From the NCBI RefSeq assembly GCF_029227855.1, contig NZ_CP074356.1: DNA of 64,000 nucleotides; one strand, given 5' to 3'. Numbering within the stretch: position 1 is the stretch's first letter; every line of letters starts with the position of its first letter. Position numbers: made by a program. This DNA is from Escherichia coli. GTDB taxonomy: Bacteria; Pseudomonadota; Gammaproteobacteria; Enterobacterales; Enterobacteriaceae. Shown piece by piece: positions 28,301-31,300 of the stretch.

Positions 28301-31300
28301 GTAACGTCGCCAGGATTGATCAGCGTTTGTTTGACGGATGTTTTTCGCGAAATAACATCAATAATCAGGCTCATAATGGCATTCCTGATAAATGGCGCAC
28401 ATCCTTAGCGAGTCCATTTATCTAAATAAGACAAAGGTAATCACTCAACAACGATGCATACCTGATATTAATAATGGCAGGATTATTTCAAGTCGGGTAA
28501 GTCGTTGTATAAGCCCTGTTTAATTCCCGCTAATGGAATAAGGTTATTAACCGCAGCGGCATAATTCACTGCGGCGATCCAGCCATCATAATTGGCATTT
28601 ATTTCAGCCGATTGCGCCTGAAAGACATCTTGCTCGACGGTTAATAGATCATTCAGGCTGCGTTTACCCAATTTATATTCATTTTGGTAGACATCTCGCG
28701 TTCTGTGCGCACTTTCAGATTGCGCTAACCCAGCCTCTTCACGACCCCGTGCGCCTGTCCAGTTGGCATATGCCACAGACGCTCGTTGCAGCACATCCAG
28801 TTTTGCCTGTTCGACCTGCGAGGCAGAGATTTTTTGTTGCCCTTCGGCCTGTTGCACCTGGGCAGAAACCGCGCCGCCCTGATACAGCGGCGCGTTAACG
28901 TTCAGTTGTAGCTGATCATCCCAATACGAGCGGTCGCTGGTCTGGTAGCGCGTTTTGCCCCCCTGAATACTCAGCGTTGGCCAGTATTGCGCTTTCGTTT
29001 TTTCCACGCCGTACTGTGCTGACTGGCGTAAGTTTTCTGCCGCCAGCACCAGCGGGATGGACTGGTAATCAATATTTTTCAGCGATACCGGCTGCTCGGC
29101 TAATTCAGCAGGTGGCGCGGCTATCGCCTCCGGCTGTACGCCAGTGAGCACCGCCAGTTGCGCTTTGGCGCTTGCCATCTGCGCCTGATATTGCTCCAGC
29201 GTTGAGCGCATTCCGGCAATGCGCGTCTGGGCCTGTAATTCATCCGACGACGAGTTCAGGCCAGCGTTAGCACGCAATGCTGCCATGTTGTAGACGTTTT
29301 CCAGCGAGTGAATATTGCGTTGAGCCGCATCGCACAAAGCCTGATAACGACTGACTTCCATATAGGCAGTCGCCGTTTTCTCTGCAACATCGGTTAAGGT
29401 TGCCATCAATTTAAAGCGGTAGCTGTCACGGGCGGCAGTTTGCAGTTTGATATCGTTGTTAGTTTTACCAAAGTCATACACCAGCTGTGTCAGGGTTATG
29501 CCATACGAAACGTTGTTATCAAGCCTGCCACTGGAGTCCGTTTGTCGGGACGGTCCCGCATTGCCGGTTAATCCAACGTGCGGATACCAGGCACTTTTGG
29601 CTTCATCAATTTGCGCTTCGCCAATACCTATCTGCGCCGCCTGTTGAGTGACGTCGGGATTTCGCGCAAAGGCGCGTAATATACTTTCCTGTAAAGATAA
29701 TTGGGCAACTGGCGTTACCGCTGGGGCGTTCGCCCATTGTGGCAGCGGTGCAGCAATTGTAGCTTCTCCCATCACCATAAAACTTATTAAAAAAATAAAC
29801 CCATTATTTTTACGGCTTTTAAACTGGAATCGCGCCATAGATAAGTCACTTCCTTCCAGGTCATTATTTTAACTGGTTTTTATAACTAGTCTCATTTTAT
29901 TAAGAAGGGTAATAACTTGTGCATCTCTTTTGTCGATCATTGATATTGGCAAAGAAATGCAGCTAAAAAGCTTATACGTTATTTATTTAGAATACACTAC
30001 GACTTTTAGATTACCATCATACACATTAAGAATAATCCACGGCAATAAGTGATTAGCATCACAGATTTATCGCGTATATATCATTTTTTTGTGACTTATT
30101 TATTAAAGGAATAAGAAAGGTAATTTGAATTAAAGACAAAGGCGCAGTACAGGCTGTACTGCGCACAGAGAGGTGTTATACGGTTTTATTGCGCTTCATG
30201 ACCATTGCCACAATAAGGCTGAGTAAGATTGCACCAATAATCCATATCAACGCACGGCTGCCCTGGGACCACAGGCTGTAGATAAAGCCAATGATCACCA
30301 ACAACATCACCAACGTACCAACGATAAGAATCGGCAACGAGGCGTGAATATCATGACGCAGGCGGATCGCCACCACAAACACCGCCAGATAGCAGATCAA
30401 AAAGGTGGCGCTGGCAACGCTGGCGAGTGAGCCTAAATTCAGCGCCGCCGTCATCAGCATAATCAGCACCACGACAATGATGTTGCCCCAGGTACTCTGC
30501 CGCCACAGGGATTTATTCATTAGCTTCGGCAGTTCGCGTTCGCTGCCCATGTTGTCCATGATGTTAAACACGGCAAACAGGTTCGCGTTGATGGCTGAAG
30601 CCGTCGCCAGTAAAGCGCCGATGACGACGATCACATAACCCACATGCCCGAGCAGCGGAGAAGCTGCCTGCGCTACGGCGGTATCGGCATATTTTTCTAA
30701 CTCTAAAGCCGATACATCGCTAAGCAAAACCAGCGCCAGCGAGATATAAAGCAACGTGGTAACGCCAATCGCCACCAGAAACGCCCGTGGCATAATGACC
30801 TGCGGATCTTTCACTTTATCCGCCGCGTTCGCCATCATGCCAAAGCCCGCATAGGCAAGGAAGGTTATCCCGATACAGGAGAAGAACGCACCGGAGCTGG
30901 GGGGCGCAGAGACGGAAATATGCGCCGGTTGCAGCGACCAGACACCTGCAATGATCAGCAATAACAGGATCATCATTTTAATGCCGACGAGGATCACTTC
31001 CAGCCGCCCTACCGCATGGTTGCTTAAGGAGTTGAAAAGCGTCATCACCGCAATGATCCCCAACGCGTAGAGCAATATAAGGTGCTCCTCCTGACTGCCT
31101 TCATGCAAAAACTGCACGGCATAAGCGCCAAAAGCACGGGCGACCATGGCGATGCTCACCGCCAGCGTCAACAGGTACAATAACGAGAGTGCCAGCGAAA
31201 AGACGCCGTTGCCTAATCCGCGACGAAAGAAGTCGATAATACCGCCATTGCTGGGATAGCTCGCCCCCAGGCGCGCATAGGCATAACCGGAAAACATCGC

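What the first reader, a model, noticed from the sequence alone, without database searches (positions are those of the whole stretch)
29839..30175. AT-rich 337 bp leader upstream of the secretion operon
The spacer between the TolC-family gene start and the ybaT terminator is markedly AT-rich with A/T tracts, contrasting with the GC-rich adhesin gene. This is the compositional signature of a horizontally acquired, probably H-NS-silenced promoter region, and is where the island promoter and any regulator sites should lie.
Basis: seen in the sequence. Interest (0 to 1): 0.3.

Follow-up and report, generated by a model that had tools for sequence, protein, structure and literature searches.

The report
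Known promoter region of E. coli OI-28
The AT-rich 337-bp spacer is real and is the already-studied promoter, regulator-binding region and 5' untranslated leader of the E. coli O-island-28 adhesin-secretion operon; whether H-NS silences it has not been tested.

Summary
Window 29839..30175 is 32.3% GC against 54.9% for the window, and it contains most of the lowest-GC 337-bp stretch of the 64 kb. A/T runs are no commoner than this composition predicts.

The window is E. coli. The operon is O-island 28 of O157:H7: tolC28, the giant adhesin siiEA/rtxA28-rtxB28, hlyB28 and hlyD28. The O157 leader is 98.4% identical.

Published work places the promoter here. Cappable-seq in EDL933 maps a stationary-phase start site (window 29982, 144-nt leader) and a minor one (29964). 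RstA binds a box at 30119..30132. The operon is also PhoB-activated and about 55-fold RpoS-dependent.

I add these points:
- a phylogenetic footprint, with core promoter and leader RNA 91-97% conserved across Escherichia lineages against about 72% at synonymous sites;
- a conserved CRP-like palindrome;
- the best Pho-box match of the window.

"Horizontally acquired" does not explain the AT-richness. The island genes are 51-60% GC, and other Escherichia lineages carry the operon at the same locus. K-12 lacks it through a deletion that left the last ~95 nt of hlyD28.

H-NS silencing is plausible but untested, and the promoter is clearly active in ordinary stationary cultures. The finding is ordinary and largely already known.

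The parts
30142..30164 (-). Intrinsic terminator hairpin of ybaT (GCGCAGTACA-GCC-TGTACTGCGC), with a U-poor tail CTTTGTCTTT at 30132..30141.
   Evidence: 10 pairs, 6 G-C. (-16.1 kcal/mol, z -4.0). The arms stay paired through G-U wobble changes in other Escherichia. The K-12 deletion junction lies at about 30146/30147, inside the 3' arm.
30119..30132 (-). Published RstA box TAATTCAAATTACC. It lies at -294..-281 from the ATG and -137..-150 from the major start site.
   Evidence: PMC12758282: EMSA is lost when the box is removed, and ChIP-qPCR shows about 6-fold enrichment. The sequence is identical in this window. It matches the Ogasawara consensus at only 7 of 12 positions. It is poorly conserved outside E. 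coli.
30091..30119 (-). Pho-box-like direct repeats at 11-bp spacing: CTTTCTT-ATTC-CTTTAAT-AAAT-AAGTCAC. This is a candidate PhoB site and is inferred, not shown.
   Evidence: 30091..30108 matches CTGTCATAWAWCTGTCAY at 14 of 18 positions. It is the single best match on both strands of the 64-kb window, and 17 of 1000 shuffles of the leader reach that score. PhoB dependence of the operon is known only through citing papers.
30075..30080 (-). TATATA, 10 nt downstream of the last Pho-like repeat. It is a hypothetical -10 of a phosphate-starvation promoter with a predicted start near 30068. Inferred only.
   Evidence: The geometry was read from the sequence. The GATATATA block is conserved in all but E. 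ruysiae (GGTATATA). No start site was seen here in the 8 phosphate-replete conditions.
30048..30063 (.). CRP-like palindrome TGTGA-TGCTAA-TCACT, centred at -73.5 from the major start site.
   Evidence: It matches the consensus at 9 of 10 positions. Only 2 of 500 shuffles of the leader do as well. It is the only match with at most 1 mismatch in the window. The half-sites are invariant in 9 sequences from 5 Escherichia lineages while 4 of the 6 spacer positions vary. Binding is untested.
29989..29994 (-). -10 hexamer TATTCT of the major promoter. There is no credible -35: TATGAT lies 21 bp upstream.
   Evidence: bTSSfinder output in the PMC10469882 supplement. BPROM in PMC12758282. It sits in a block that is 92% conserved against about 72% at neutral sites.
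29982..29982 (-). Major transcription start (TSS1), equal to EDL933 579751. It gives a 144-nt 5' leader.
   Evidence: Cappable-seq strengths were 0, 4.1, 0 and 2.4 in exponential LB, M9, acid and salt. They were 64.7, 53.0, 31.3 and 9.2 in the same four stationary conditions. The mapping was checked base by base.
29964..29976 (-). Minor promoter: -10 TATAAG at 29971..29976 and TSS2 at 29964, equal to EDL933 579769.
   Evidence: It was detected in stationary M9 only. The hexamer lies 6 nt upstream of the mapped start.
29839..29982 (-). The 144-nt 5' untranslated leader RNA. Three helices are predicted:
- 29951..29961 pairs with 29920..29930 around a hypervariable loop.
- 29872..29878 pairs with 29884..29890.
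- A long-range helix pairs 29903..29918 (which contains CCUUCU) with 29843..29857 (which contains the Shine-Dalgarno GGAAGG).
   Evidence: -28.7 kcal/mol, z -2.99, 0 of 200 shuffles fold as well. (99.6% of cells paired, but no compensatory changes). (91-97% identity against about 72% neutral; the loop is 24-33%). (Shine-Dalgarno unpaired probability 0.17 against a control median of 0.445).
29849..29857 (-). Shine-Dalgarno region GGAAGGAAG, 10-12 nt upstream of the ATG at 29836..29838.
   Evidence: Read from the sequence. It is invariant in all 9 aligned sequences.
28483..29838 (-). First gene of the operon: the TolC-family outer-membrane protein (tolC28 / Z0608 / ECs0540).
   Evidence: Pfam OEP, 4.9e-48. 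RefSeq annotation.
4267..28374 (-). The rest of the operon:
- the giant BapA-related adhesin siiEA, 7605..28374, read here as two ORFs;
- the ABC transporter, 5439..7601;
- the HlyD-family MFP, 4267..5442, whose stop overlaps the cueR start.
   Evidence: Pfam BapA_N, Big_13, Big_6, FG-GAP, HemolysinCabind, ABC_membrane, ABC_tran and HlyD_3. ORFs.
30025..30116 (+). Two weak antisense or orphan start sites on the opposite strand, at window 30025 and 30116 (EDL933 579708 and 579617).
   Evidence: Cappable-seq supplement. The 30116 site was detected in one condition; the 30025 site is listed as an orphan start, for which the fetched text gives no per-condition presence. They are typical of spurious initiation in AT-rich DNA.

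Best explanation
The spacer is the complete control region of the OI-28-type type I secretion and giant-adhesin operon (tolC28, siiEA, ABC transporter, MFP). Read in the direction of transcription, on the minus strand, it contains the following.

1. The ybaT intrinsic terminator insulates the operon from the acid- and RpoS-induced glsA-ybaT transcript.
2. About 150 bp of very AT-rich upstream activator DNA (28% GC) follows. It carries the published RstA box, Pho-box-like repeats and a CRP-like palindrome.
3. Next come two weak core promoters without a -35 element. They start at 29982 (major) and 29964 (minor).
4. Last is a 144-nt leader RNA, conserved except for one variable loop, that ends at the ribosome-binding site.

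Because the core promoter is weak, transcription depends on alternative sigma factor and activator input. It is almost off in exponential growth. It is turned on in stationary phase (RpoS-dependent), by phosphate starvation (PhoB) and by Ca2+ through RstA.

Shown in O157:H7 by others: the start sites, promoter activity, RstA binding, and RpoS and PhoB dependence.
Shown here: sequence identity, the exact anatomy, the conservation pattern and the evolutionary origin.
Inferred: the Pho-box and CRP assignments, any role of the leader RNA fold, and any H-NS contribution.
For: - Identity with OI-28: the leader is 98.4-100% identical in 958 of 5426 complete E. coli genomes, including O157:H7 and O145:H28. 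It aligns to O157:H7 without indels.
- Start sites: Cappable-seq in EDL933 gives 579751 and 579769, which are window 29982 and 29964. Both are induced in stationary phase.
- Promoter activity: lacZ fusion, RstA ChIP-qPCR and EMSA, and the RstA box (PMC12758282).
- RpoS dependence: Z0608 is 55-fold and Z0609 20-fold RpoS-dependent (PMC2907692).
- Growth phase: ECs0540 and ECs0541 rise 3.5 and 4.1 log2 units on entry to stationary phase (PMC2241611).
- PhoB activation is cited.
- Footprint: the core promoter is 92% and the leader RNA 91-97% identical across Escherichia lineages. Third codon positions of the flanking genes are 65-78% identical.
- CRP-like half-sites are invariant while the spacer varies.
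- The best Pho-box match of the window lies here.
- T1SS parts are confirmed by Pfam.
Against: - All experiments were done in O157:H7, not in this strain. The window differs from O157:H7 at 5 of the 308 island-derived leader positions (98.4% identity). One difference (G to A at 29886) breaks a pair of the small leader hairpin.
- The published RstA box lies 137-150 bp upstream of the mapped start, which is far for an OmpR-family activator. It is a weak match to the RstA consensus (7 of 12; 498 of 500 shuffles contain a match of 8 or more). It evolves at about the neutral rate.
- The original PhoB paper could not be read, so the real Pho box and the PhoB-dependent start site are unknown to me.
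- Part of the RpoS dependence could come from read-through of ybaT. The ratios were ybaS 19-fold, ybaT 70-fold, Z0608 55-fold and Z0609 20-fold.
Confidence: 0.85

Rival explanations
1. The leader is a xenogeneic promoter kept silent by H-NS filaments that nucleate on the AT-rich DNA. It is expressed only when a counter-silencer or alternative sigma factor overcomes H-NS.
For: - The leader is 68-72% A+T over about 300 bp, and TpA steps are 11.3% against 4.1% for the window.
- There is an H-NS-like motif GCGATAAATC at 30064..30073.
- The promoter is nearly off in exponential phase, with strength 0-4.
- Weak antisense and orphan starts occur in the leader, as expected of AT-rich DNA that H-NS normally polices.
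- From established knowledge, many RpoS-dependent promoters are repressed by H-NS.
- The AT-rich regulatory region of another O157 RTX operon, ehxCABD, is an H-NS target (PMC3688479, abstract seen).
Against: - No H-NS occupancy or hns-mutant data for this locus were found.
- The motif match is not above chance: 320 of 500 shuffles do as well.
- The promoter is strongly active in plain stationary LB and M9, so it is not cryptic.
- Only about 300 bp are AT-rich. The flanking 26 kb of island are 51-60% GC, which leaves little room for H-NS to spread.
- Recent horizontal acquisition is contradicted.
- The acrR-acrA spacer, a core-genome regulatory spacer, is almost as AT-rich at 34% GC.
Confidence: 0.35
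2. Read-through model. The operon is transcribed mainly by RNA polymerase that starts at the GadX/RpoS-dependent glsA-ybaT promoter and passes the imperfect ybaT terminator. On this model the spacer is a passive linker.
For: - The RpoS-dependence ratios fall along the transcription direction: ybaT 70-fold, Z0608 55-fold, Z0609 20-fold.
- The terminator tail CTTTGTCTTT is U-poor.
- All genes from glsA to cueR lie on one strand.
Against: - Cappable-seq enriches primary triphosphate 5' ends and finds a strong start inside the spacer in all four stationary conditions. The glsA start (577261) was called in only one condition, stationary LB.
- The cloned spacer drives lacZ on its own.
- The hairpin is stable at -16.1 kcal/mol and conserved.
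- The core promoter block is under purifying selection.
Confidence: 0.08
3. Two-promoter model, an extension of the best explanation. Besides the mapped stationary-phase promoter, a distal promoter is used under phosphate starvation and RstA activation. Its -10 would be TATATA at 30075..30080 and its start near 30068. It would be driven by the Pho-like repeats (about -24 to -52) and the RstA box (about -52 to -65). It would give a leader of about 230 nt.
For: - The best Pho-box match of the window lies exactly 10 nt upstream of TATATA. From memory, that is the geometry of pstS-type Pho promoters.
- The RstA box abuts these repeats. It would then sit at a normal activator distance instead of -137..-150.
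- The asr promoter is likewise controlled by both PhoB and RstA (cited).
- The blocks CCTTTAATAAATAA and GATATATA are largely conserved across Escherichia (each differs in E. ruysiae).
Against: - No start site was detected near 30068 in 8 conditions, although none was phosphate-limited.
- 14 of 18 is a modest match (17 of 1000 shuffles).
- TATATA lacks the invariant T at -7.
- The original PhoB paper was not available.
Confidence: 0.35
4. Riboregulator model. The conserved 144-nt leader RNA folds so that CCUUCU (29903..29908) masks the ribosome-binding site. Translation of tolC28 would then need temperature, a small RNA or an RNA-binding protein to open the helix.
For: - The fold has z = -2.99, and 0 of 200 shuffles fold as well.
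- Both arms of the long-range helix are invariant, while a 21-nt loop nearby is only 24-33% conserved.
- In the small hairpin, 5 of 6 variable positions keep pairing through G-U.
- The Shine-Dalgarno unpaired probability is 0.17 against a median of 0.445 for 29 other genes.
Against: - There is no compensatory double change. The shuffle control is uninformative.
- 3 of 29 control genes have an even more occluded ribosome-binding site.
- Orthologues in other genera show no such occlusion (median 0.40).
- No Rfam family matches.
- Sequence conservation could equally reflect protein or sRNA binding sites, or DNA-level elements downstream of the start.
Confidence: 0.2

Closest known systems
Regulatory region of tolC28 (z0608 / ECs0540) of O-island 28 / S-loop 42 in E. 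coli O157:H7. Sources: Niu et al. 2025, PMC12758282; Yoshida et al. 2010, PMID 20640580; Cappable-seq, PMC10469882.
   Same: It is the same locus and orthologous DNA. The position between ybaT and the TolC-family gene is the same, identity is 98.4% with no indels, and the RstA box, -10 hexamers and start-site nucleotides are identical.
   Different: The strain differs: the window matches canine, avian and human isolates such as strain 746 at 100%. There are a few point differences. The adhesin gene is split at a different place than in EDL933.
The asr promoter of E. coli, which is under dual PhoB and RstA control.
   Same: It is activated by the same two OmpR-family response regulators. It served as the positive control for RstA binding in the OI-28 paper.
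   Different: asr is a small core-genome acid-shock gene. The arrangement of its sites relative to its start was not compared here.
The ehxCABD regulatory region of O157:H7 (Singh & Grainger 2013, PMC3688479).
   Same: It is an extremely AT-rich regulatory region upstream of an RTX/T1SS operon in the same organism. AT-richness there creates competing promoter-like sites (abstract).
   Different: For ehx, H-NS binding and its effect on promoter choice were shown. For this leader nothing about H-NS is known. ehx is plasmid-borne (from memory).
The SPI-4 siiABCDEF leader of Salmonella, which also controls a giant adhesin T1SS. This comparison is from memory and was not checked here.
   Same: It is a long leader in front of a T1SS operon that encodes a giant Ig-repeat adhesin. 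The E. coli adhesin is annotated 'SiiEA' by analogy.
   Different: From memory, SPI-4 is H-NS-silenced, activated through HilA/SprB, and carries an ops element for RfaH. This leader has no ops element. The gene order differs and there are no siiA/siiB genes. The known inputs are RpoS, PhoB and RstA.

Membership tests
OI-28 tolC28 regulatory region (E. coli) | Orthologous position between the ybaT stop codon and the TolC-family start, with high DNA identity to the O157:H7 sequence. | tested here: met
   98.4% identity over 308 bp with no indels, and the same flanking genes.
OI-28 tolC28 regulatory region (E. coli) | Presence of the published RstA box TAATTCAAATTACC at -294..-281. | tested here: met
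   An exact match at 30119..30132 on the minus strand.
Bacterial sigma70/sigmaS promoter | An experimentally mapped primary 5' end with a -10 hexamer 6-7 nt upstream. | tested here: met
   EDL933 Cappable-seq starts at 579751 and 579769 correspond to window 29982 and 29964. TATTCT and TATAAG lie 6 nt upstream, and the sequence is identical in the window. No experiment was done in this strain itself.
Bacterial sigma70/sigmaS promoter | A -35 hexamer 16-18 bp upstream of the -10. | tested here: not met
   The only candidate, TATGAT, is 21 bp away. The consensus scan places no promoter at the mapped starts. This fits an activator- or sigmaS-dependent promoter.
H-NS-silenced, horizontally acquired island promoter | DNA markedly more AT-rich than the host genome. 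| tested here: met
   32.3% GC against 54.9% for the window.
H-NS-silenced, horizontally acquired island promoter | The island is recently acquired and the empty site is ancestral. | tested here: not met
   The K-12-type site keeps about 95 nt of the MFP 3' end and half of the terminator. One junction allele is shared by 4459 genomes. The same locus is occupied in 4 other Escherichia lineages. Island genes are 51-60% GC.
H-NS-silenced, horizontally acquired island promoter | H-NS occupancy in vivo and derepression in an hns mutant. | not testable with these tools
   No dataset covering this locus was found.
H-NS-silenced, horizontally acquired island promoter | Silent under standard laboratory growth. 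| tested here: not met
   Start-site strength is 31-65 in stationary LB, M9 and acid and 9.2 in stationary salt. Z0608 reads log2 10.8 in wild-type stationary phase.
Pho regulon promoter | An 18-bp Pho box (CTGTCATAWAWCTGTCAY) about 10 bp upstream of a -10 hexamer. | tested here: inconclusive
   A 14 of 18 match at 30091..30108, the best in the window, reached by 17 of 1000 shuffles, with TATATA 10 nt downstream. No start site has been mapped there.
CRP class I activated promoter | A TGTGA-N6-TCACA site centred near -61.5, -72.5, -82.5 or -92.5. | tested here: inconclusive
   A 9 of 10 match centred at -73.5. Half-sites are invariant and the spacer varies across 5 lineages. Binding and crp dependence were not tested.
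RfaH/ops-dependent long virulence operon | An ops element GGCGGTAGNNTG in the transcribed leader. | tested here: not met
   No match with at most 1 mismatch lies between 29839 and 30175.
Curated RNA families (riboswitches, thermometers, leaders; Rfam 15) | A covariance-model match at or near the gathering score. | tested here: not met
   Only three chance-level hits were found, with E 2.5-4.8 and scores far below gathering.
Type I secretion operon for a BapA/SiiE-like adhesin | An OEP outer-membrane protein, an ABC exporter, a HlyD-family adaptor and a substrate with BapA_N, Ig-like repeats and C-terminal RTX repeats. | tested here: met
   Pfam OEP 4.9e-48, ABC_membrane and ABC_tran, HlyD_3, BapA_N, Big_13, Big_6 and HemolysinCabind.

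The most novel reading that the evidence does not exclude
The 144-nt leader RNA, not the AT-rich DNA as such, may be the most constrained element of the region. It is 91-97% identical across Escherichia lineages whose synonymous sites are about 72% identical. Invariant helix arms surround a freely varying loop, and an invariant CCUUCU is predicted to mask the ribosome-binding site. It could be an undescribed Escherichia-specific post-transcriptional switch, such as a thermosensor or an sRNA or CsrA target. Such a switch would gate synthesis of the T1SS outer-membrane component and, through coupling, of the 6000-7200-aa adhesin.
Probability: 0.2. Interest if true: 0.45.

Novelty: already known. 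Interest (0 to 1): 0.2.

Why it matters
The region controls a giant adhesin system that O157:H7 needs for early epithelial adherence and gut colonisation (PMC12758282). About 18% of complete E. coli genomes carry it. Knowing the layout helps in designing regulatory experiments: a terminator, activator sites, weak promoters without a -35 element, and a leader RNA that is conserved apart from one variable loop.

Two corrections follow for how this island is usually described:
- AT-richness is confined to the control region of an otherwise GC-rich operon and is shared by orthologues in other genera. It is a regulatory feature, not a mark of foreign origin.
- The 'O-island' is the ancestral state at this locus. 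K-12 and about 82% of E. coli carry one shared deletion allele. In that allele the ybaT-cueR intergenic region is built from the remains of the terminator and of the hlyD28 3' end.

Whether H-NS acts here is still an open question that can be tested directly.

Tried and rejected
- Rfam scan of 29500..30500 at a permissive threshold: chance hits only.
- ops/RfaH element in the leader: absent.
- H-NS high-affinity motif TCGATAAATT: one 8 of 10 match, not above chance.
- Consensus scans for RstA, sigmaS extended -10, IHF, Fis, PhoP and GadX-like sites: nothing above shuffles. The published RstA box scores 7 of 12, and 498 of 500 shuffles contain a match of 8 or more.
- The simple sigma70 scan found three promoter-like sites. 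None coincides with the mapped starts. Its TATGAT is not conserved outside E. coli (GATGAT elsewhere).
- A 10-codon upstream ORF (ATGCACAAG...TGA, 29893..29925): a 1-nt insertion shifts its frame in the other Escherichia lineages, so the conservation is not at peptide level.
- A 13-nt inverted repeat, 29837..29849 with 30091..30103: not co-conserved and near chance expectation.
- Alignment of the leader to upstream regions of orthologues in Enterobacter, Pseudocitrobacter, Budvicia, Rosenbergiella and Trabulsiella: no alignable similarity, only shared AT-richness.
- Covariation test of the leader fold: uninformative, with no double changes.
- Literature: the original PhoB paper (PMID 20640580) is not held.
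Full report
**What the sequence is.**
The window is E. coli chromosome. On the minus strand it reads glsA (31471..32403), ybaT (30176..31468), the 337-bp spacer, and then the operon. The operon comprises a TolC-family gene (28483..29838), a giant adhesin gene (7605..28374), an ABC exporter (5439..7601) and a HlyD-family adaptor (4267..5442). The adaptor's stop overlaps the cueR start at 4267..4270. Pfam confirms a type I secretion system with a BapA/SiiE-like substrate carrying RTX repeats. RefSeq calls the adhesin 'BapA-related adhesin SiiEA'. The cluster is O-island 28 / S-loop 42 of O157:H7: z0608 = tolC28 = ECs0540, z0609 and z0615 = rtxA28 and rtxB28, z0634 = hlyB28, z0635 = hlyD28.

**Check of the observation.**
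The coordinates are exactly the intergenic spacer.
- GC is 32.3%, or 29.9% without the terminator. The window is 54.9% and the adhesin gene 60%.
- Only 0.44% of 337-bp windows are as low. The global minimum overlaps the spacer.
- It ranks second lowest of 21 intergenic spacers.
- A/T homopolymer tracts (7 of at least 4 nt) match what this composition predicts, 5.6 +/- 2.1.

The ybaT terminator is a stable hairpin at 30142..30164 (-16.1 kcal/mol, z -4.0) with a U-poor tail.

**What is already known about it.**
The leader occurs in 958 of 5426 complete E. coli genomes at 95-100% identity, including O157:H7 at 98.4% and O145:H28 at 99%. Four lines of published work on O157:H7 bear on it.

1. Niu et al. 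2025 (PMC12758282) cloned this upstream region in front of lacZ and found RstA-dependent activity. They showed RstA binding by ChIP-qPCR and EMSA. They defined an RstA box TAATTCAAATTACC at -294..-280, which is window 30119..30132. They also found induction by Ca2+. They predicted a promoter with BPROM but mapped no start site. They do not mention H-NS, AT content or operon structure.
2. Yoshida et al. 2010 reported ecs0540-0544 as PhoB-activated Pho-regulon genes. I know this only through citing papers, because the paper is not held.
3. Dong and Schellhorn 2009 found Z0608 55-fold and Z0609 20-fold RpoS-dependent in stationary phase. ECs0540 and ECs0541 rise 3.5 and 4.1 log2 units on entry to stationary phase.
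4. The Cappable-seq atlas of EDL933 (PMC10469882, supplementary tables) lists two gene-specific starts for this gene, at 579751 and 579769 on the plus strand. The first has strengths of 0, 4.1, 0 and 2.4 in exponential LB, M9, acid and salt. It has 64.7, 53.0, 31.3 and 9.2 in the same four stationary conditions. The second appears in stationary M9 only.

With tolC28 starting at 579895 and no indels between the two leaders, these starts map to window 29982 and 29964. Their -10 hexamers are TATTCT (29989..29994) and TATAAG (29971..29976). Neither has a usable -35. Two weak antisense or orphan starts map to 30116 and 30025 on the plus strand.

**What I add: anatomy and footprint.**
I aligned the leader from this window, three other E. 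coli, an E. coli-labelled short-read-assembly contig (L041, TolC 94% identical) whose leader RNA is identical to O157's, and four divergent lineages. The divergent lineages are Escherichia sp. E1V33, E. whittamii, E. ruysiae and a contig whose TolC is 95% identical. As a neutral yardstick, third codon positions of the flanking ybaT and tolC genes are 65-78% identical to the window. Against that yardstick:
- The terminator, the RstA-box and Pho-like segment, and the CRP segment are 69-81% identical, which is about neutral overall.
- The core-promoter block is 92% identical.
- The leader RNA is 91-97% identical, except for a 21-nt patch at only 24-33%.

Inside the 'neutral' part, a CRP-like palindrome TGTGA-TGCTAA-TCACT (30048..30063) keeps both half-sites in every sequence while four of the six spacer positions change. 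It is the only match with at most one mismatch in the 64 kb. Two of 500 shuffles of the leader match as well. Its centre lies at -73.5 from the major start.

The best match in the whole window to the 18-bp Pho-box consensus is 30091..30108 (14 of 18; 17 of 1000 shuffles). It is part of three 11-bp-spaced repeats that abut the RstA box. TATATA follows exactly 10 nt later. This suggests, but does not show, a second, phosphate-starvation promoter starting near 30068. None of the Cappable-seq conditions was phosphate-limited.

The leader RNA folds better than shuffles (-28.7 kcal/mol, z -2.99). Its three helices are compatible with all eight distinct sequences. One helix encloses the hypervariable patch. 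Another pairs an invariant CCUUCU with the ribosome-binding site. There is not one compensatory double change, and the occlusion is not shared by orthologues in other genera. I treat this as a lead only.

**Origin of the AT-richness.**
Three results argue otherwise.
- The island's genes are GC-rich at 51-60%. Only the control region is AT-rich.
- Orthologous tolC-adhesin operons sit in unrelated genomic contexts in Enterobacter, Lelliottia, Pseudocitrobacter, Budvicia, Rosenbergiella, Trabulsiella and others. Most also have 300-600+ bp of 21-40% GC upstream of the TolC gene, although the sequences cannot be aligned.
- The K-12 'empty' site is a deletion scar. Its 124-bp ybaT-cueR spacer consists of the 5' half of the terminator hairpin joined to the last ~95 nt of the MFP gene, up to the stop that overlaps the cueR ATG. 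The same junction occurs in 4459 of 5426 genomes, mostly at 99% identity or more.

The island allele occupies the same locus in four other Escherichia lineages. The locus therefore has two old alleles, and the island-bearing one is ancestral.

**H-NS.**
Nothing I could reach reports H-NS occupancy or hns-mutant expression for this locus.
- In favour: composition, TpA richness, exponential-phase silence, spurious antisense starts, and the general link between RpoS-dependent promoters and H-NS.
- Against strict silencing: the promoter fires strongly in ordinary stationary cultures, the AT-rich patch is only about 300 bp inside GC-rich DNA, and the one motif match is at chance level.

I put about 0.35 on H-NS being a material repressor here.

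**Read-through from ybaT.**
The RpoS ratios (ybaS 19, ybaT 70, Z0608 55, Z0609 20) would fit read-through. However, primary 5' ends inside the spacer, autonomous reporter activity, and a conserved stable terminator make read-through at most a minor contribution.

**Verdict.**
The functional reading, that the promoter and regulator sites lie here, is right and already published for O157:H7. The evolutionary reading is wrong. H-NS remains open. The finding is ordinary. Its modest residual interest lies in the conserved leader RNA, the candidate CRP and Pho sites, and the deletion-scar origin of the K-12 ybaT-cueR spacer.

Noticed in passing
window 4267..4365 and 30146..30164; L002 5870..5993: The K-12 ybaT-cueR intergenic spacer is a deletion scar. 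It joins the 5' half of the ybaT terminator hairpin to the last ~95 nt of the HlyD-family gene. The same junction is present in 4459 of 5426 complete E. coli genomes. RefSeq often annotates a 'hypothetical protein' over it.
   Followed up: yes
window 4267..4270: The MFP stop codon overlaps the cueR start (ATGA). In island-bearing strains cueR may therefore be co-transcribed or translationally coupled with the secretion operon. Its K-12 upstream sequence is the remnant of the MFP gene.
   Followed up: partly
window 11002..11270: The giant adhesin gene reads as two ORFs (7605..11117 and 11002..28374) in different frames, with the frameshift somewhere between about 11118 and 11268. Strain 746, which has an identical leader, has one intact 6924-aa CDS that is only 95% identical in DNA. 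EDL933 is annotated as a pseudogene with an internal stop at a different place.
   Followed up: partly
window 1252..3862: A second accessory segment lies between ybbJ and cueR and is absent from K-12. It holds five small ORFs, including a split YadA-like trimeric-autotransporter remnant (2166..2642 and 2635..3183; YadA_anchor 2.6e-12). It also holds the most AT-rich spacer of the window (1800..2165, 30.9% GC).
   Followed up: partly
window 28674 (minus strand), equal to EDL933 581059: The Cappable-seq tables list an internal start inside tolC28, about 300 nt upstream of the adhesin start. It is seen in stationary conditions with strength 3-17. It may be an internal promoter for the adhesin gene. 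The tolC-adhesin junction (28200..28700) is a second AT-rich patch at 39-46% GC.
   Followed up: no
L036 (strain ECNB21-M121) 1..400; window about 29880: In one genome an IS1A element interrupts the leader about 40 bp upstream of the tolC28 start and replaces the tolC side. Another strain (1579) has a frameshifted tolC28. L029 (strain SCPM-O-B-8794) carries an internally deleted island. Decay of this operon therefore recurs.
   Followed up: no
window 39921..39932 (minus strand): A perfect 12-nt ops consensus GGCGGTAGCGTG lies inside the ushA coding region on the coding strand. About 0.1 such matches are expected by chance in the window.
   Followed up: no
L005 1313..3766; L012 2417..3208: In Pseudocitrobacter faecalis the gene upstream of the orthologous operon encodes a protein with what read by eye as PAS, GGDEF and EAL motifs (no domain search was run), hinting at c-di-GMP control. 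In Enterobacter mori it is a divergent protein that looks like a DeoR-family regulator (also by eye), separated by a 690-bp AT-rich spacer.
   Followed up: no
window 29700..30300 against K-12-type genomes: In island-less genomes, most (4127) match the part of this query they retain (mainly the ybaT 3' end) at only 90-95%, and the retained MFP remnant is 91-92% identical in the two island-bearing genomes listed. That is more divergent than typical E. coli core DNA. It suggests two old haplotypes at this locus.
   Followed up: no
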